Notes: generated from the letters alone by a model not told the origin. A stretch of DNA of 64,000 nucleotides from an uncultured Gemmatimonadales bacterium (GCA_963809895.1 CAWELD010000003.1:2240001-2304000); one strand, 5' to 3'. Counted from the first letter of the stretch, positions 55,781 through 64,000 are shown. Numbers and translations are program-made.

Positions 55781-56203
55781 TCAGGCCCCTTCCTGCATGG
55801 AGGGCGCCCGGTGGGCGGGTACCGTCACCGGGCGTTCGCTGTACTGCGCCCACTGCATGGGCGTCTCCCAGACGCGGGTGTACAGGAGACCGTCGGCCAA
55901 CGTCGGGGGCAGGCGCTTCTTGAGCTCGTCGAAGAACCAGCGAGCCTGGTTTTCGGCGCTGGTCTCCACGGACTCGAACGCCGGAAGATCGTTCAGGTTG
56001 TAGTGGTCCAGCTCTTCGGCCAGCGCCCTGAGCTCCCGCTTCAGGTCCACGAAGTCGTAGGCGATGCCGGACTCGTCCAGCTCCTCGGCCTGGAGCGCCG
56101 CCTCCACCACGTAGCGGTGACCGTGCAGACGCTCGCACTTGCCCTTGTAGTGGCGCAGGAAGTGGGCGGCGTCGTAGTGGGCCTGAACACTGACGGTGTA
56201 CAT
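55781..56203 (-). CDS. queD: 6-carboxytetrahydropterin synthase (PTPS-I/QueD type)
   Basis: YDAAH, CERLHGH (CX3HGH), DF, LDH..LN, TSAEN, WET. Confidence 0.82.
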   Translation of the reverse strand: MYTVSVQAHYDAAHFLRHYKGKCERLHGHRYVVEAALQAEELDESGIAYDFVDLKRELRALAEELDHYNLNDLPAFESVETSAENQARWFFDELKKRLPPTLADGLLYTRVWETPMQWAQYSERPVTVPAHRAPSMQEGA

Positions 56204-56209
56204 GAAGGA

Positions 56210-56941
56210 CTACCCTCGCTCGATCTGCAGAAGGGGGATGCGCACGTGGAGGGGGCGCGTGAGCACGAACTCGACGGCGTCGGCCACGTCGTCGGGCCGG
56301 AGCATGGCGTCACGGTCCGGAAGGCCCGGGACCCGCGCGGCATCCACGGCGTCCCACAGCGGCGTGTCGGTGGCGGCGGGCTCGATGAGCGTCGCACCGA
56401 CGCCGGTTCCGCGAAGCTCCTCCACCAGGACCTCGTGGAGGCCGCGGAGCCCGAACTTGGAGGCGGCATAGGCGGCATTGCCGGGCAGGGCGCGCCGGCC
56501 CGCCACCGACCCCAGATTCACGATCCGCCCACGGTTCCGTTCCAGGAGGGCCGGCAGCAGCGTCCGCACGACCAGGAAGCTCCCTCTGAGGTTCACGGCG
56601 ATCTGGCGATCGAAGTCGGCCACCGAGGTCTCGGCGAAGGGAGCCAGGGAGAAGGCGCCCGCGGCGTTGACGATCGCGTCGGGCGGACCACCGAGCTGCT
56701 CCTGCAGGCCCTCCACGGCCGCCCACACCTCGGCGTCGTCGGTGAGGTCCGCGGGCCATGGCGCACCCCCCGAGCTCGTGGCGAGGTCCTCGACCGGGGC
56801 CGGGTCGCGGCACAGCACGTGAACGCGCGCCCCACCCTCGGCCAACCGACGGACCACCGCTTCGCCGATCCCCCGGCTCCCGCCGGTGACCAGCACCGTC
56901 CCGCCGCTCAGCTCCACCGGCTGCTTCTCCGGTCCGCGCAC
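56210..56941 (-). CDS. SDR oxidoreductase, candidate sepiapterin reductase
   Basis: TGGSRGIG, YAASKFGLRGL, PAATDTPLW. Located between folE and a PTPS gene. Confidence 0.75.
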   Translation of the reverse strand: MRGPEKQPVELSGGTVLVTGGSRGIGEAVVRRLAEGGARVHVLCRDPAPVEDLATSSGGAPWPADLTDDAEVWAAVEGLQEQLGGPPDAIVNAAGAFSLAPFAETSVADFDRQIAVNLRGSFLVVRTLLPALLERNRGRIVNLGSVAGRRALPGNAAYAASKFGLRGLHEVLVEELRGTGVGATLIEPAATDTPLWDAVDAARVPGLPDRDAMLRPDDVADAVEFVLTRPLHVRIPLLQIERG

Positions 56942-56948
56942 GCGTGTC

Positions 56949-57587
56949 TCACGACAGGGGGTGATGCGTGGCCATGGAGAGCCGCAGGAACTCGTCCCGG
57001 GTCCGGGGATCCTCGAGGAAGGCGCCCCGCATGGCCGACGTGATGGTCTTGGAGTTCTGCTTCTGCACGCCTCGCATCATCATGCACAGATGGTAGGCCT
57101 CCACCACCACGCCCACCCCCTGCGGCTGGATGATGTCCCACAGGGCCTGGGCGATCTGCTCGGTGAGACGCTCCTGGACCTGGAAGCGGCGGCTGAACAC
57201 CTCCACCAGCCGGGCGGTCTTCGAGAGCCCCATGATCTGGCCGTCGGGGATGTAGGCGACGTGCACCTTGCCGAAGAAGGGCAGCAGATGGTGCTCGCAC
57301 AGCGAGTACATCTCGATGTCCTTCACGAGCACCATGTTGTGGTGATGCTCTTCGAAGAGCGCATCGCCGATGACCCTCTCCGGCGACGACTCGTAGCCGT
57401 GCGTGAGAAAGCGCATGGCCTTCTCCACGCGCTCCGGAGTCTTGACCATCCCCTCGCGCTCCGGATCGTCACCCAGACGGCGGATCATCTCGGCCACGAG
57501 GTCGGTGAAGGCCACGCCGGAGAGGTCCGGGCGGGTCGAGCCGGCACCGTGGGCCGTCGTTCCTTTGTTCGTCGTCGTTTCGGGCAC
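56949..57587 (-). CDS. folE: GTP cyclohydrolase I
   Basis: TPERV, SLCEHHLLPFFG, GLSK, QVQERLT, HLCMMMRG. Start at GTG 57587 (GAGGAG RBS) or GTG 57617. Confidence 0.95.
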   Translation of the reverse strand: MPETTTNKGTTAHGAGSTRPDLSGVAFTDLVAEMIRRLGDDPEREGMVKTPERVEKAMRFLTHGYESSPERVIGDALFEEHHHNMVLVKDIEMYSLCEHHLLPFFGKVHVAYIPDGQIMGLSKTARLVEVFSRRFQVQERLTEQIAQALWDIIQPQGVGVVVEAYHLCMMMRGVQKQNSKTITSAMRGAFLEDPRTRDEFLRLSMATHHPLS

Positions 57588-57613
57588 CTCTATCTCCTCT
57601 ACCGACGGGGAGC

Positions 57614-58030
57614 TCACTCCCCGGAGTATTCCACGTAGTTGCGGGGCGTCTCCCACAGCAGCAAGCGCTCCAGGGCGACCCCGTCCGGCATGCGATCCAC
57701 CAGGCGCTCCCACACGGCCACGACCAGGTTCTCGGTGGTGGGAATACGGCCTCCCATCCAGGGCACCTCGAGGTTGAGGTTGCGGTGGTCCACGTCGTCC
57801 ACCACCTGCTCCTGGACGAGCTCCTTGAGCGCCTTCAGGTCCAGCACGTATCCGGTCTCGTCGTCCACGTCGCCGGACACCGTGACGTCGAGCTCGTAGT
57901 TGTGGCCGTGCCAGTTGGGGTTGGAGCAGGCACCGAAGACGTCGGCGTTGCGCTCGTCGGACCAGTCGGGACGAAAGAGGCGGTGTGCCGCGCTGAAATG
58001 GACTCGGCGGGTGACCCTGACTCGGGGCAT
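57614..58030 (-). CDS. 6-pyruvoyltetrahydropterin synthase, PTPS-II (biopterin) type
   Basis: FSAAHRL...N..VFGACSNPNWHGHNY (CX5HGH), DHRNLN, PTTEN, ET..N. ATG at 58030 with GGAG RBS. Confidence 0.85.
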   Translation of the reverse strand: MPRVRVTRRVHFSAAHRLFRPDWSDERNADVFGACSNPNWHGHNYELDVTVSGDVDDETGYVLDLKALKELVQEQVVDDVDHRNLNLEVPWMGGRIPTTENLVVAVWERLVDRMPDGVALERLLLWETPRNYVEYSGE

Positions 58031-58145
58031 GCTGCTCCACTCCTGGAAGGCCGTAGCGGACGCGCCGGACGGCGAGAAGATACCCCGCCCCCGACCGGCT
58101 GCATGCTTACCCACCCTGCTGCAAATCGGTCCCGCCCGAAGCGGA

Positions 58146-58177
58146 GGAGCCGGCGCCCCCACGGGGACGCCGGCTCC
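58146..58177 (-). terminator. GC-rich hairpin after the BNR-repeat gene
   Basis: GGAGCCGGCG/CGCCGGCTCC 10-bp stem. No U-tract. Confidence 0.4.
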
Positions 58178-58206
58178 GGACCGCGCACGGTGGTGACGAC
58201 GGCGCC

Positions 58207-61200
58207 TCAGGACACCAGCCGCACCCGGATCTTGGACTCGTCGACGATGATGCGCGGACCGTCGGGGCCGAGCCTTTCGTTGAGCTGACGAATGGTGGTG
58301 TTCCACACCTGCCAGACGGCATCGATGGCCTCCTGGGCTTCGGTGTGGACCTCCCGCAGCCGCAGCATCTGCGGGTCGGTGGGCGGCGCCTCCACCCCCG
58401 AGATGGAGCGCGTCAGCGAGCGAACCTCCTCGCGCACCCGGGGACGTTGCCGGTACCCCATGTTGGGCGGGGGCCTGCGCAGCAGCGAATCGGTCACCTG
58501 CGCCATTTCGGCCCGGGCCCGCGCCACGTCGTCGCGTAGATCCGCGGCGCCCGGCAGCGCCCCGGGCTCGTCGCGGAGCGTCTCGTCGAGGGCGTCGAGC
58601 TGCTGGAGCACGCTCTCGGCCACGCCGACGGCGCCGTCCACCTGTCCCGCGAGCTCGCCCAGCGACGTCACCGCCTCGAACTGCGCGCGGTAGTCCGCGG
58701 CGGTCATCTCCACCCTGGGATCCCCGCGCACCTCCACCGACCGGGACTTCTCCCAGCCCGGCCCCACCAGCGCCACCGTGTACGTGCCCGGAACCGCCGT
58801 GGGTCCACCGCCCCCGAAGAACCCACCGCCGCCGCCCTGTCCGCCGGCCGGATCGTCGTAGCGCAGGTCCCAGGTGACCCGGTTGAGCCCCACCCTGGGC
58901 TCGCGCACCGGGAGCGTACGAACGGTGTCACCGGCCCCGTCGCGGACTTCGACCCGCAGCCCGCCGTCGGGGACCGACGCCAGGTAGAAGTTCACCATGG
59001 CGCCGTAGTCCGGGTTCGGCGCCGCGTACGCGCGCTGGCCCTGGTTGGCGTCGGTTCCGGCCATCTCCCACCGGGTCGCCCGCCGGACCGGAAAGAGATA
59101 GGGAGCCTCGTCCAGCGCACGGGGCAGATCCTGCAGCACCCTGGCGTCGTCCAGGACGTACGCGCCCCGGCCGTGGGTGCCCAGCACCAGATCGTCGTAG
59201 TCCGGCTGCATCTGGATGTCGCGCACCGAGACCGGAGGCAGATCGGCGCCTCGCAGGTCGTGCCAGCTCGAACCCCGGTCGAAGGAGACCTGGAGCCCCC
59301 TCTCCATTCCCACGTAGAGGATGTCCGGGTCGGTGAGGTCCTCGCGGATCACCTTCACGTAGTCGTCCTGGGGCAATCCCTCCGCCAGGCTCCGCCAGGT
59401 CGCGCCGTAGTCGTCGGTGACGAAGGCGCTGGGCGCGAAGTCGTCCATCTGGTGATTGTCGACGGCGATGTAGGCCCGCCCACCCTCGAAATTCGACGCG
59501 TCCACCTTGGCGATCCACGCTTCATCGCGCAGGCCGGCGCGCTTCAGGTTGTCGGTGACGTCGGTCCAGCTCTCGCCGCCGTCGCGGGTCACGTGCACCA
59601 GCCCGTCGTCGCTTCCCGTCCAGATGACGCCGGCCTCCACCGGCGACTCCTCGATGGTCAGGATGGTGGTGTGGAACTCGGCCGCCGTGTTGTCGAGATA
59701 GATCTCCCCGCCGGAATCCAGCTGCTTCTCCGGGTCGTCGGTGGTGAGGTCCGGGCTGATCACGTCCCAGGACTGGCCGAAGTCGGTGCTCCGGAAGACC
59801 ACGTTGCCGCCGAAGTACACGGTGGCGGGATCGTGGGGCGAGATGTGGATGGGCGCGTTCCAGTTGAAGCGGTACTCGTGGTTCACCATGGCGTCTCCCG
59901 CCGACCCCACGATCTTCGGGTACGGATGGATGCGCCGCGCGGCTCCGGTGCGGGTGTCCACCAGGGCGATGTTGCCGCCCTGGGAGTTGGTGTAGACCAG
60001 CCACGGCATGCCGGGCACCGACTGGCTGTAGAAGCCGTCGCCGCCGGAAAGGTTGAACCAATCGTCCTTCAGGATCCCTTCGCTGTGCAGCGAGTTGGAG
60101 GGACCGCACCAGTTGCCGTTGTCCTGCAGCCCGCCGCACACCCAGTACGGATCCCGGTCGTCGACGTCGATCTGGTAGAACTGGGACAGCGTCACGGTGT
60201 TCAGGATGTCGAAGGTCTCCCCTCCGTCCAGCGACACCTGGAATCCCCCGTCACTCCCCGAGAGGTAGCGCTGTGAATCCTGGGGATCGATCCAGAACGA
60301 CTGATGATCGCCGTGCACGTCGCGGGCGATGCGCTGAAAGGTGCGTCCGCCGTCCGTGGACTTCGACAAGCCCCCGGACAGGGTGATCAGCACCTCGGGG
60401 TTGGTGGGGTCCACCCTCAGATCCGAATAGTAGAACGGGCGGAAGTTGATGTCCCTGGAGTCGTTCACCGTGCGCCAACTCTGACCCCGGTCGTCGGAGC
60501 GCCACAGCTGACCCTGGGTGCGCGTCTCGGAGATGAGGTAGACCGTTTCCGGCGCACTCTGGGCCACCGCCACGCCGATGCGGGCCATGGGCTCGGTGGG
60601 CATCCCCGGCCGATGGGCCAGCGACTGCCAGGTCTCCCCCCCGTCGCTGCTACGCCACAGGGCGGTCTCGCCGCCACCGTCGTCGAAGCGCCAGGGCCGG
60701 CGCCGGAAGGTCCACATGCCCGCGTACAGGACGCGCGGGTTGGAGGCTTCGAGGTCCAGGTCGCTGCAGCCGGTGTCCTCGTCCACGTACAGGACCTTGT
60801 CCCAGGTCGCCCCGGCGTCGGTCGTGCGGAAGACCCCGCGTTCCGGGTTGGGTCCCCAGGCGCGGCCCAGGGCGCACACCCACGCGACATCCGGATCGTC
60901 CGGATGCACGCGGATACGCTTGATGCGCTCGGTCCCGTCCAGGCCGAGATAGCTCCAGGTGTCCCCACCGTCGGTGGATCGGTACACCCCGTTGCCGTAG
61001 GAGGAGGAGTTGCGGGGATCCCCCTCGCCGCTCCCGAGCCAGATCACGTTGGGATCGGAGGGTGCCACGGCCAGCGCCCCCACGGAGTAGACCGGCTGGT
61101 CCGTGAAGAGGGCCTCGAAGGTCGTGCCCCCGTTGCGGGTCCGGAACACGCCGCCGTCGGCACCTCCCACGTAGAAGGTGCGCGGGTCGCCCGCCACCCC

Positions 61201-61529: not shown

Positions 61530-61679
61530 CGCACCGGAGGGGTTTTATTGAAGCCCGGGCAGTATTGATGGTGACCTCCCCGCAACTTCCGTCTTCCTTC
61601 ATCGAGGCGTGACGTCCATCTCGGGAGTCAGTCCCGGCTTCTCTTGTGTTGGCTCAATAATGATGGCCCTCCGGTACGC
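61530..61679 (-). ncRNA. ssrS: Probable 6S RNA
   Basis: Rod-like fold: CGUACCGGAGGG/CCCUCCGGUGCG closing stem, UAUUGAGCC/GGCUUCAAUA stem, A-rich central bubble AACACAAGAGAAG, inner UGACUCCCG/CGGGGAGGUCA stem. Own promoter and terminator. Confidence 0.7.
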
Positions 61680-61767: not shown

Positions 61768-61797
61768 TTGACATTTCGCCCGGCGCGCCCCTAGCCT
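61768..61797 (+). promoter_or_regulatory. sigma70-type promoter of the metal-uptake operon
   Basis: TTGACA(61768-73)-N18-TAGCCT(61792-97), 8 nt before ATG 61806. Confidence 0.62.
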
Positions 61798-61805
61798 GGT
61801 CGTTC

Positions 61806-62141
61806 ATGGACCACATGCGCTACAACCTGGCCCGCTGGTTGGGGATTCCCCTGACGGCGGTCCTTCTGGCCCTCACCGTGGCCCTGCCCCTCATGGAGAG
61901 CAGGGATTGGCGTGGTGGGCCCGTGCTGGAGGCCAAGCACGACCCGGCGCACTGCATCCAGGGCCACGACCACCGCCTGTGCATCCTGGGCGGGGTCCTG
62001 CGCACGCTCCTCCCGGCGAGCCGTCCAAGGCCGCTTCCCGAGACCCAGGTGGAAGGCCTGCGCGAGGCGCGCTGGGCCGAGATTCCCGGCCGCATCCTCC
62101 ACCCGCTCACCCGCTCCCGGGCCCCTCCCTTCTCGCTCTGA
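61806..62141 (+). CDS. DUF2946-like leader peptide with His/Cys motif and C-terminal RAPP arrest motif (111 aa)
   Basis: Hydrophobic signal-like N-terminus, HDPAHCIQGHDHRLC, C-terminal RSRAPPFSL*. First gene of a metal-uptake operon. Confidence 0.78.
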   Translation: MDHMRYNLARWLGIPLTAVLLALTVALPLMESRDWRGGPVLEAKHDPAHCIQGHDHRLCILGGVLRTLLPASRPRPLPETQVEGLREARWAEIPGRILHPLTRSRAPPFSL

Positions 62142-62245
62142 ACCCAGCTCCATGCGCCGCCGTCTCGCCGATCCGCGGACGGGCGGTCGCCGTGCAGGCC
62201 CATGGGGGCCCTGCACGCGCTGAACCCAGAACCGAGATGTGGAGG
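62124..62245 (+). promoter_or_regulatory. Anti-Shine-Dalgarno structure coupling the RAPP codons to the next gene
   Basis: CCTCC(62124-28)/GGAGG(62241-45) and TCTCG(62131-35)/CGAGA(62233-37) are complementary. Inner hairpin CGTGCAGG/CCTGCACG at 62191-62217. Confidence 0.6.
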
Positions 62246-62252
62246 TCTACGC

Positions 62253-63578
62253 ATGCGCGTTCCCCAGAGATGGCTCGCGGGCACCGTGGTGGTGCTCGCC
62301 GTCATCACGACGTTCCCCACCCCCGGGGCAGCCCAACAGCAGGCTGCCGATTCGGTGGCCGCCCGCCTGGCCCGCCTCCAGGCCCGGGTCGACAGCCTCG
62401 AGGCCCTCGTCCGCCGGCTCCAGGCCACCGGTCAGGAGGAGGCGGCCCAGAGCGCCGCCGAGCAACTCCGCGCCGCGGCCCGTGCCGCGGCCGCCGCGGG
62501 CGCCGCCCCCGACACCACCACCAGCGCCCAGGGAGGCCAGACCTTCGTCGGGCGCCAGCGCTCGCTTCAGGCGCTGAATCCCGAGATCAGCGCCACCGGT
62601 GATTTTCTCGTCCAGGCCGACAAGGACGACACCAACGCCGACAACTTCATCGCGCGGGAGTTCGAGTTTTCCTTCCAGGCCTCGCTGGACCCCTACTCCC
62701 GGGCCAAGATCTTCGTGAGCAACCACCGCCCAGGCGGTGAGCTGGTCCCCTTCGCCACCGATGACGGAGGCGAGGAGGAGGGCGGCACCGCCGTGGAGGA
62801 GGGCTACGTGCAGTGGGTGAACCTGCCCGGCGGAACCAGCCTCACCCTGGGACGCTTCTTCCAGCGCTTCGGCACCCTCAACCGCTGGCACGGCCACGCG
62901 CTGCCCTTCCAGACCCGCTCGCTCCCCCATCTGGCCTTCCTCGGTGAGGAGTCTCTCACCCAGACGGGAGCGTCGCTTTACTGGCTGGTCCCGGTGCACG
63001 GGGGCGGGACGTACGAGACCTGGCTCGAGGTGACCCGGTCCGAGAACGCGGCCCTCTTCGGGGACAACCACGGGCTGTCGGTCCTGGGACACGTCAACGG
63101 CTTCTGGCAGCTCACCGACGCCACCGATCTGGATGTGGGCCTCTCCTGGATCAACGGCACCCGGGAGTCCGGCGACGCCCTCATGGACCAGAATCTCTAC
63201 GGGGCGGAGATGGCCTTCACCTGGAGGCCTCCGAACCGCAGCCGCTACCGCGACTTCACCTTCCGCGGTGGCGTCATGGTCAAGGATCCGTCGTCGGCGA
63301 CCGTGAACGCGCGCAGCGCCAAGGGCGTCTGGAGCATGGCCGAGATGCGCCTGTCGCCGAGCTGGCTGGTGGGCGGACGCTACGACTGGGTCGAGAATCC
63401 GGACGACCCGGACCAGACCGCATCGCTGGTCTCGCCCACGCTCACCTGGTGGCAGAGCGAGTTCGTCCGCGTGCGCGCCGAATACGACTTCCTGCGCCGC
63501 TCCTTCGGCGAAGACACCGGCAAGCTCGTCATGCAGGTGACCTTCGCCATGGGCCCCCACAAGCACGAGAACTACTGA
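62253..63578 (+). CDS. Outer-membrane beta-barrel with N-terminal coiled coil, metal-uptake associated (441 aa)
   Basis: Signal peptide, coiled coil, NPEIS, E.E..FQASLDPY, EEGY, FGTLNRWH.H, SEF..VR.EY, His-rich C-terminus GPHKHENY. Confidence 0.8.
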   Translation: MRVPQRWLAGTVVVLAVITTFPTPGAAQQQAADSVAARLARLQARVDSLEALVRRLQATGQEEAAQSAAEQLRAAARAAAAAGAAPDTTTSAQGGQTFVGRQRSLQALNPEISATGDFLVQADKDDTNADNFIAREFEFSFQASLDPYSRAKIFVSNHRPGGELVPFATDDGGEEEGGTAVEEGYVQWVNLPGGTSLTLGRFFQRFGTLNRWHGHALPFQTRSLPHLAFLGEESLTQTGASLYWLVPVHGGGTYETWLEVTRSENAALFGDNHGLSVLGHVNGFWQLTDATDLDVGLSWINGTRESGDALMDQNLYGAEMAFTWRPPNRSRYRDFTFRGGVMVKDPSSATVNARSAKGVWSMAEMRLSPSWLVGGRYDWVENPDDPDQTASLVSPTLTWWQSEFVRVRAEYDFLRRSFGEDTGKLVMQVTFAMGPHKHENY

Positions 63579-63627
63579 CCCCCTGGAGGGCCCCACGGCG
63601 GGCCGTCCCAGTCACGGAGACGACATC

Positions 63628-64000
63628 ATGAAAACGCATCTCGTCACAGGTCTGGCCTTGATGATCGGCGCGCTGAGCGCTGGTCCGGCCCGGGCCGACA
63701 CGCACCCCGACGGCGACGGGCCCGCGCGCTTCGCGCCGGTGCGGGTGGTGGCCACCCTTCCGGTCTACGGAAGCATCGTCAAGGAGATCGGCGGCAACGA
63801 GGTGGAGGTGACCTCCATCGCCGACCCCGACGAGGATCCCCATTTCGTGCGGCCGAAGCCCAGCTTCGCGCTGGAGCTGCGCAGGGCCGACATGTTCATC
63901 ACCACCGGACTGGACCTGGAGCTGTGGGCTCCTTCGCTCCTGGACAAGGCGGGCAACAGCAAGGTCATCGAAGGCGGCCCGGGCTACGTCACCGCGTACA
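63628..64000 (+). CDS. Zn/Mn ABC transporter substrate-binding protein, ZnuA/TroA family (partial; not in ORF track)
   Basis: Manual translation: MKTHLVTGLALMIGALSAGPARA signal, VRVVAT, EIGG, EDPHFVRPKPS, ADMFITTGLDLELW. Confidence 0.9.
   Translation, partial: MKTHLVTGLALMIGALSAGPARADTHPDGDGPARFAPVRVVATLPVYGSIVKEIGGNEVEVTSIADPDEDPHFVRPKPSFALELRRADMFITTGLDLELWAPSLLDKAGNSKVIEGGPGYVTAY

What the first reader, a model, noticed from the sequence alone, without database searches (positions are those of the whole stretch)
61768..64000. Metal-sensing ribosome-arrest leader (His/Cys + RAPP) gating a porin-ZnuA uptake operon via an anti-SD helix
Seen: a near-leaderless 111-aa ORF with a signal-like N-terminus, HDPAHC-x3-HDH-x2-C and terminal RAPP. 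The Pro-Pro-Phe-Ser codons (CCTCCCTTCTCG) are complementary to CGAGAtgtGGAGG, the SD region of the next gene, and an inner hairpin shortens the loop. No Fur/Zur-like box was seen. Known: RAPP-type motifs stall ribosomes (ApdA/ApdP), and DUF2946 leaders CruR and CutF use CxxC plus a Pro-rich C-terminus to control copper genes. Inference: a variant with a His-rich site instead of CxxC senses periplasmic Zn/Ni/Co/Mn during export. Stalling would free the SD, and metal-triggered release would shut uptake off, extending this mechanism beyond copper.
Basis: partly seen in the sequence, partly recalled or inferred. Interest (0 to 1): 0.82.

Follow-up and report, generated by a model that had tools for sequence, protein, structure and literature searches.

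The report
Ribosome-stalling leader before zinc-uptake genes
A small conserved gene in front of a pore and two zinc-type import genes ends in a motif known to jam ribosomes, and it likely switches the import genes on when metal, probably zinc, is scarce, a trick so far demonstrated only for copper.

Summary
Observation confirmed. The 111-codon ORF (61806-62141) has a hydrophobic N-terminus, a His/Cys cluster and RAPP. Its last Cys lies 45 residues before RAPP, the spacing of CruR. It heads a porin-ZnuA-ZnuB operon of a Gemmatimonadota genome. Such leaders precede 94 of 103 homologous porins (chance 47 of 2000). The RAPP codons pair with the porin SD better within a locus than across loci (-3.0 kcal/mol, controls near 0), although no alignable consensus helix was found. 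Two corrections: 41 of 93 orthologous leaders keep CxxC, so 'His instead of CxxC' is a clade variant and does not identify the metal; and a C-rich, rut-like tail makes Rho termination a live second output. Zinc is favoured: the binding protein has three conserved His, a Vibrio homologue operon has Zur boxes and no leader, and no Zur was identified here. Stalling, metal and direction are untested. It is a new variant of the CruR/CutF (DUF2946-like) leaders. This scan noted the same system before (21 findings, at least 19 genomes), and a 2025 supplement lists similar uORFs without comment.

The parts
61768..61797 (+). Predicted sigma-70-type promoter (TTGACA, 18 nt, TAGCCT), giving a near-leaderless mRNA
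   Evidence: Read; missed by the scanner. TANNNT lies 5-10 nt before 57 of 94 leader starts and 0 of 94 porin starts. The start choice rewarded this motif, so the count is partly circular.
61806..62141 (+). Leader ORF, 111 aa, CruR/DUF2946-like RAPP arrest-peptide candidate
   Evidence: no Pfam or NCBIfam hit at E<=0.1
61851..61895 (+). Hydrophobic segment (residues 16-30), predicted Sec signal or signal anchor
   Evidence: 15-aa hydropathy 2.37; >=1.5 in 91 of 94 leaders; AF2 helix 3-33
61938..61982 (+). His/Cys cluster H45, C50, H54, H56, C59 (predicted metal site)
   Evidence: Kept in 27, 26, 29, 29 and 29 of 30 same-family leaders; phylum alignment H45 74, H54 87, C59 93 of 94
62118..62129 (+). 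RAPP arrest motif, 45 residues after C59
   Evidence: RAPP 80, RGPP 10, RSPP 4 of 94; Cys-to-Arg spacing 43-48 in 90 of 93
62088..62147 (+). C-rich stretch, candidate Rho-utilisation site
   Evidence: (C-G)/(C+G) 0.50 here, mean 0.36 across 94 loci; C:G at four-fold sites 674:384 in the last 20 codons against 2219:2150 elsewhere
62124..62140 (+). Anti-SD strand (Pro-Pro-Phe-Ser-Leu-stop codons)
   Evidence: cognate versus non-cognate test
62145..62222 (+). Two inner hairpins (62154-62190, 62191-62217) closed by a 4-bp helix, bringing the anti-SD and SD together
   Evidence: similar multibranch folds in most of 30 family loci
62227..62245 (+). SD-side strand, with GGAGG at 62241-62245
62253..63578 (+). 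Outer-membrane beta-barrel porin with N-terminal coiled coil and invariant HxH and GPHxH motifs; not a TonB-dependent fold
   Evidence: AF2 mean pLDDT 87.7; Foldseek top hits are general porins OmpM1, chitoporin, OmpU; conserved columns
63628..64000 (+). 5' part of a ZnuA-family binding protein (358 aa; runs on to C3:2304704), followed by an ABC-3/ZnuB permease at C3:2304726-2305574; no ATPase gene in the operon
   Evidence: PF01297 E 2e-45 and PF00950 E 4e-28; ORF list; only ZnuA-family gene found in the genome

Best explanation
The ORF is a conserved leader in front of a porin-ZnuA-ZnuB operon that likely stalls its ribosome at RAPP when metal (probably zinc) is scarce and thereby likely turns the operon on. 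Shown by sequence and comparison: the leader, its signal-like N-terminus, the His/Cys cluster at a fixed 45-residue distance, and RAPP codons that are complementary to the porin SD in each locus. Inferred steps: (1) The leader is translated from a near-leaderless mRNA and enters the Sec translocon. (2) The ribosome arrests with the two Pro codons in the P and A sites, as shown for CruR. (3) It covers 62124-62140, frees the porin SD and probably also shields a C-rich Rho-loading stretch, so the uptake genes are expressed. (4) When Zn2+ is plentiful it binds H45/C50/H54/H56/C59, which at this tether length would lie at the translocon exit. The resulting folding would pull the chain and release the arrest. 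(5) The ribosome then terminates four codons later, the anti-SD helix re-forms and Rho polarity would silence the rest. The leader would do the job that Zur does for the homologous Vibrio operon.
For: Leader in 94 of 103 loci against 47 of 2000 random windows. Also 60 of 68 in a second porin subfamily (a few overlapping the first set), 21 of 23 further family loci and 20 of 30 Acidobacteriota loci. Spacing 43-48 in 90 of 93 matches CruR's 45 (PMC9426467), and CruR's RAPP arrest was shown by toeprinting (PMC12992588). Footprint-SD pairing of at least 4 expected bp in 52 of 82 loci against 9 of 82 for a control window. Cognate duplex residual -3.0 kcal/mol (permutation SD 0.32; three controls +0.1 to +0.5). 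Native codons pair better than synonymous recodings in 64 of 82. First Pro codon is CCT in 34 of 94 against 83 of 921 other leader prolines. Removing RNA up to the footprint lowers the SD-opening cost by at least 2 kcal/mol in 57 of 82 loci against 7 of 76 control starts, and here from 11.3 to 7.0. For zinc: the binding protein keeps His at all three aligned ligand positions (98 of 98, 97 of 97, 95 of 95), and its closest solved relatives are labelled zinc-uptake binding proteins. The homologous Vibrio campbellii operon (E 3e-10, 9e-34, 2e-23) has overlapping Zur-motif matches right before the porin (6 matches, 1.2 expected) and no upstream same-strand ORF of 90 aa or more. The two Fur-family proteins here match Fur and PerR better than Zur.
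Against: No experiment on this system. RNAalifold found no consensus structure in 25 family sequences, so there is no column-level covariation. If RNA 5' of the stalled ribosome may re-pair, the SD core of this locus opens no more easily (9.7 against 9.7 kcal/mol), and a control mask lowered the cost almost as much as the footprint (13.9 against 12.2, from 16.5). CCA is also enriched at the first Pro (23 of 94), which GGAGG pairing does not explain. Porin starts were picked partly by SD strength and 12 doubtful loci were dropped. Many orthologues keep the CxxC used for copper by CruR. Cluster A-I binding proteins with three His can also carry Mn or Fe (own knowledge), and the fourth ligand position varies. 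CutF uses the opposite polarity and CruR does not need its signal peptide. The kin are not independent, so the statistics overstate.
Confidence: 0.5

Rival explanations
1. Same metal-sensing arrest peptide, but the main output is Rho-dependent termination as for CruR, and the helix is secondary.
For: C over G skew peaks at RAPP and holds at four-fold silent sites, 674:384 against 2219:2150. rho is present. CruR works this way (PMC9426467). No consensus helix was found.
Against: Locus-specific complementarity to the SD and the SD-opening contrast with control starts are not needed for a pure Rho model. The two outputs can coexist.
Confidence: 0.2
2. The leader senses another metal (Mn, Co, Ni, Fe or Cu) rather than zinc, or several of them.
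For: 41 of 93 orthologues keep CxxC. His-only CutF-like proteins sit before Ni/Co genes (PMC9973294). The binding protein scores below all curated cut-offs, with MntC second to AztC. The genome also has a ZIP-family transporter.
Against: Three-His binding protein, Zur boxes before the Vibrio homologue, and a mixed His3/Cys2 cluster without Met, which suits Zn2+ (own knowledge).
Confidence: 0.2
3. The leader monitors secretion or periplasmic redox (a C50-C59 disulfide), like SecM or ApdA, and couples porin synthesis to envelope capacity and not to metal.
For: Signal-like N-terminus in 91 of 94. RAPP leaders are known before sec and Dsb genes (PMC12992588). Two conserved Cys.
Against: His residues are as well conserved as the Cys, some orthologues have a single Cys, and the cargo is a metal importer in 99 of 103 loci.
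Confidence: 0.08
4. The ORF and the pairing are chance products of GC-rich DNA.
For: The leader has no family hit and no relative by single-sequence search other than its own cluster. Pro codons are always partly complementary to GGAGG.
Against: 94 of 103 against 47 of 2000; 2538 cluster representatives match the profile at E<=0.001; ESM Atlas top hit 0.97.
Confidence: 0.01

Closest known systems
CruR (Bp2923) of Bordetella pertussis, DUF2946/PF11162 (PMC9426467: parts 2 and 4 of 7 and passages read; arrest shown in PMC12992588, passages)
   Same: First gene of a metal-uptake operon; signal peptide; Cys 45 residues before a C-terminal RAPP; C-rich 3' end; outer-membrane transporter next; arrest would mean ON and metal OFF.
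   Different: HxHxxC plus an upstream H-x4-C instead of CxxC; cargo is a general-porin-fold barrel with ZnuA and ZnuB, not a TonB-dependent copper receptor; a clear anti-SD helix; below the DUF2946 cut-off.
CutF of Rhodobacter capsulatus (PMC9973294 and bioRxiv 10.1101/2025.02.05.636593; passages read)
   Same: Exported nascent sensor whose stalled ribosome opens a stem-loop hiding the next SD.
   Different: CutF has CxxxC and a Pro-rich end, stalls when copper is bound and induces a detoxifying oxidase; here RAPP, uptake genes and the opposite predicted polarity.
RAPP/RGPP uORF catalogue of Fujiwara et al. 2025 (PMC12992588: abstract, passages, supplement file 8 searched, cut when stored)
   Same: Small exported RAPP proteins before metal genes. 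His/Cys-bearing SLIV_16130 and SLIV_18480 arrest in vitro and are proposed as metal sensors. [quoted passage not shown]
   Different: The main text never mentions zinc, and no Gemmatimonadota, ZnuA or helix analysis was found in what was held. That those receptors are homologues of this porin is likely by size and context but was not tested.
SecM, ApdA and ApdP arrest peptides (PMC10951233: search listing only; otherwise recalled)
   Same: RAPP-type arrest; a stalled ribosome frees a sequestered SD; release by a pulling force.
   Different: They monitor secretion, have no metal site and control sec or yidC genes.
Zur-repressed zinc uptake operons (PMC6103462; passages read)
   Same: Same kind of cargo; the Vibrio homologue carries Zur-motif matches.
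   Different: Here there is no Zur box and control is predicted to be post-transcriptional.

Membership tests
DUF2946/CruR (PF11162) | Profile score above the gathering cut-off (23.7 bits) | tested here: not met
   No hit for this protein at E<=0.1. 10 of 94 orthologues hit at E<=0.1, best E 1.5e-4, which is 23.0 bits. ESM Atlas names the nearest cluster 'putative DUF2946' with no common Pfam family.
DUF2946/CruR (PF11162) | CxxC motif | tested here: not met
   HxxC here; CxxC in 41 of 93 orthologues
DUF2946/CruR (PF11162) | C-terminal RAPP | tested here: met
   R105-A-P-P, three residues before the stop
DUF2946/CruR (PF11162) | About 45 residues between the last Cys and RAPP | tested here: met
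   45 here; 43-48 in 90 of 93; CruR 45
DUF2946/CruR (PF11162) | N-terminal export signal | tested here: met
   Hydrophobic segment with a positive N-region in 91 of 94; cleavage not tested
DUF2946/CruR (PF11162) | Heads an operon of copper homeostasis genes | tested here: not met
   Cargo is porin-ZnuA-ZnuB: ZnuA in 99 of 103 loci, the other 4 truncated
DUF2946/CruR (PF11162) | Rho-dependent termination controlled by the arrest | tested here: inconclusive
   rut-like C richness and rho present; no functional test
CutF-type translational switch | Stem-loop hiding the downstream SD within reach of the stalled ribosome | tested here: met
   Predicted only; no alignment-level covariation
CutF-type translational switch | Metal induces stalling (metal ON) | not testable with these tools
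   Uptake cargo argues for the opposite polarity (inference)
RAPP arrest peptides | RAPP-dependent ribosome arrest shown in vitro or in vivo | not testable with these tools
   Shown for CruR and seven Streptomyces peptides (PMC12992588), not for this one
Zur regulon member | Zur box at the promoter and a Zur gene | tested here: not met
   No match in the window at up to 3 mismatches; best 4 or more mismatches upstream of all 94 leaders with the E. coli motif; Fur-family genes best match Fur and PerR. A divergent Zur or box cannot be excluded.
TonB-dependent receptor (for the barrel) | 22-strand barrel with a plug domain | tested here: not met
   441 aa, about 16 long strands and no plug in the model; top structural hits are general porins

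The most novel reading that the evidence does not exclude
A ribosome-based zinc sensor: in Gemmatimonadota and other little-studied phyla, a nascent His/Cys peptide replaces the Zur repressor and gates an ATPase-less porin-ZnuA-ZnuB importer through both an anti-SD helix written into the arrest codons and Rho polarity.
Probability: 0.4. Interest if true: 0.75.

Novelty: new variant of a known kind. Interest (0 to 1): 0.52.

Why it matters
Roy et al. note that no riboswitch is known for copper or zinc and that CruR was the first uORF shown to respond to a transition metal (PMC9426467). In five searches of the held library I found no paper that tests a zinc-sensing arrest peptide. If this leader senses zinc, it would show how bacteria without a recognisable Zur control zinc uptake. 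It would also give a compact natural series (CxxC, HxxC and single-Cys forms before one operon) for asking how metal binding releases a RAPP arrest, which both CruR papers leave open. The assays are standard (PURE toeprinting, reporter fusions).

Tried and rejected
A single-sequence protein search of the leader found only its own cluster; relatives came through the porin. Pfam, NCBIfam and Rfam gave nothing for the leader or the intergenic region. The AF2 model of the leader (pTM 0.40) shows two helices and no defined metal site. No second leader of this family was found in the genome by profile, PF11162 or rule-based search. One metatranscriptome run (X1, share 0.19) has contigs at about 98-100% identity over parts of the leader and intergenic region, but contigs cannot show transcription, strand or level, so this is not used as evidence. 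Zur/Fur-type motif scans of five leaderless Gemmatimonadota loci and ten leaderless Acidobacteriota loci found no match better than 4 mismatches, so leader and Zur box are not shown to be mutually exclusive beyond the single Vibrio case. Three of those motifs were recalled consensus strings; only the E. coli one comes from a paper. The alternative porin start at 62202 was rejected because it has no SD. The genome-contig scan returned almost only Gemmatimonadota. File S1 of PMC9973294 was not among the 3 small files held, and files of PMC12992588 were cut or too large; either may list ZnuA-operon leaders.

Full report
Observation. The ORF at 61806-62141 encodes 111 aa with a hydrophobic segment (residues 16-30), H45-x4-C50-x3-H54-x-H56-x2-C59 and R105-A-P-P three residues before the stop. 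A TTGACA / 18 nt / TAGCCT promoter ends 8 nt before the ATG; the scanner did not call it. The region 62100-62270 folds with z = -2.76 and pairs the Pro-Pro-Phe-Ser-Leu-stop codons with the GGAGG of the next gene across two inner hairpins. Downstream lie a 441-aa outer-membrane barrel that resembles general porins, not TonB receptors, a ZnuA-family binding protein and an ABC-3 permease, with no ATPase gene. Named relatives place the genome in Gemmatimonadota, near Longimicrobiales.

Conservation. The porin matched 104 of 301 genomes of the phylum. I fetched 104 loci, leaving out two second-match fragments. One gave no hit in my script, so 103 were examined. A frame of at least 70 aa with R[AGS]PP within 14 residues of its stop lies upstream in 94 of them (80 RAPP, 10 RGPP, 4 RSPP), against 47 of 2000 random windows. 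One of the 94 has no Cys and may be frameshifted. Of the other nine, one has RAPP with a longer tail, one has RPRPPP, two are cut by contig ends and five lack a leader. A ZnuA gene follows in 99 of 103 and the other four are truncated; an ATPase motif appears in only 4 of the 59 longest loci. Leaders also precede 60 of 68 usable loci of a second porin subfamily (12 of 80 too short; a few duplicate the first set), 21 of 23 further family loci and the 20 of 30 best loci from the phylum of a Vicinamibacterales genome. The leader profile matches 2538 cluster representatives at E<=0.001.

Relation to DUF2946. CruR has CXXC and RAPP 45 residues apart, and the spacing matters (PMC9426467). Here C59 is 45 residues from R105, and the spacing is 43-48 in 90 of 93 leaders. 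Forty-one keep CxxC, 16 have HxxC and 36 have another residue there. Ten of 94 hit PF11162 weakly, the best at E 1.5e-4 and 23.0 bits against a cut-off of 23.7; this protein does not hit it. It is therefore a DUF2946-like relative that fails the formal profile test. The His-for-Cys change is a clade variant (H45, C50, H54, H56, C59 in 26-29 of 30 family members) and does not by itself identify the metal.

The helix. After dropping 12 loci with doubtful porin starts, the predicted ribosome footprint pairs with the SD window by at least 4 bp in 52 of 82 loci, against 9 of 82 for the adjacent 30 nt. Duplexes of the RAPP region with the SD region are 3.0 kcal/mol better within a locus than across loci after removing row and column effects (permutation SD 0.32), while three control pairings give +0.1 to +0.5. 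Coding positions alone give -1.0 (SD 0.22). Native codons beat synonymous recodings in 64 of 82, and the first Pro codon is CCT in 34 of 94 against 83 of 921 elsewhere in the leaders. Folding only the RNA 3' of the footprint lowers the SD-opening cost by 2 kcal/mol or more in 57 of 82 loci against 7 of 76 ZnuA starts treated alike; here it falls from 11.3 to 7.0.

Against the helix. RNAalifold found no consensus. CCA is enriched too. In this locus the SD core can re-pair with a stretch just 5' of the footprint at no loss (9.7 against 9.7). Porin starts were chosen partly by SD strength, and kin are not independent. The 3' end of the leader is C-rich, also at silent sites, as in CruR's rut site, and rho is present. 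Translational occlusion and Rho polarity probably act together; which dominates is open.

Which metal. The binding protein has His at all three aligned ligand positions in every homologue covered, and its best solved relatives are labelled zinc-uptake binding proteins. It is the only ZnuA-family gene found in the genome, beside a ZIP transporter. A Vibrio campbellii record has the same porin, binding protein and permease without an ATPase. Overlapping matches to the E. coli Zur motif (PMC6103462) lie just upstream of it, and it has no leader ORF of 90 aa or more. This window has no such box, and its two Fur-family proteins best match Fur and PerR. This favours zinc, but it rests on one distant operon and on ligand type. 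Leaderless loci elsewhere showed no Zur box. Mn, Co, Ni, Fe or Cu are not excluded.

Mechanism, with status. Shown: the anatomy, its conservation and the complementarity. Known from relatives: RAPP arrest of CruR with the two Pro codons in the P and A sites (PMC12992588); metal release in CruR; stem-loop opening by the stalled CutF ribosome. Inferred: export of this peptide, arrest when metal is scarce, zinc-driven folding that pulls the chain free, and closing of the helix with Rho polarity afterwards. Confidence in the whole chain is about 0.5; confidence that it is a cis-acting arrest leader is about 0.9.

Novelty. Metal-sensing RAPP leaders are known, and non-copper forms have been proposed in print. 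[quoted passage not shown] Five literature searches found no test of a zinc-sensing arrest peptide, but subscription papers and some supplements were not visible. This scan had already noted the same system in 21 findings from at least 19 genomes; those notes are not counted as support. What this analysis adds is the quantified locus-specific anti-SD pairing, the rut-like silent-site bias, the CxxC-to-HxxC series within one orthologous set, and the Zur-box counterpart in Vibrio. Verdict: new variant of a known kind, interest 0.52.

Papers seen: PMC9426467, parts 2 and 4 of 7 and passages. PMC12992588, abstract, passages, supplement searches and one part of file 8. PMC9973294, passages and three small supplements. 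bioRxiv 10.1101/2025.02.05.636593, passages. PMC6103462, passages. PMC10951233, search listing only.

Noticed in passing
window about 61680 to 61500, minus strand: A conserved, apparently unannotated non-coding RNA diverges from the leader promoter. It has its own sigma-70-like promoter, a long hairpin with a central bubble and a terminator-like hairpin. It matches 34 of 41 related genomes, nearly always once, and an RNA-library contig at depth about 650 covers 61560-61669. The shape is 6S-like, but Rfam gives no hit here and RF00013 finds nothing in the genome. It is unlinked to the operon in relatives.
   Followed up: partly
G000 C3:2301480-2306633; loci L194-L205: In several relatives an endonuclease IV-like gene lies directly upstream of that RNA. 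Here the leader-porin-ZnuA-ZnuB operon sits between the two, which suggests an insertion. The operon is patchy: 88 of 251 family genomes.
   Followed up: partly
window 63628 onward; loci L032-L105; L190: Most of these operons, and the Vibrio one, have a binding protein and a permease (two permeases in L090, L095, L098, L099) but no ATPase gene; only 4 of 59 long loci carry one. The energy source of the importer is unexplained.
   Followed up: partly
L006, L020, L035, L083, L097: Five Gemmatimonadota operons lack the leader; most show a -10-like element shortly before the porin and none has a Zur-like box, so they may be constitutive.
   Followed up: partly
L255, upstream of the porin: A leaderless Acidobacteriota locus has an AT-rich Fur-family-like stretch overlapping a TTGAC promoter.
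   Followed up: no
G000 C3:2320274-2321515 and C3:850478-851581: Two rho-like genes, one above the TIGR00767 cut-off and one below.
   Followed up: no
window 55781-58306, minus strand: A folate/queuosine cluster read from ORF translations: two QueD/PTPS-like genes, a FolE-like GTP cyclohydrolase and a short-chain dehydrogenase (names recalled from sequence, not searched).
   Followed up: no
PMC12992588 supplement file 8: Many actinobacterial RAPP uORFs ending in a conserved GLDVLRRSxDRAPP stretch precede TraR/DksA C4 zinc-finger genes, a separate leader family with no obvious metal site.
   Followed up: no
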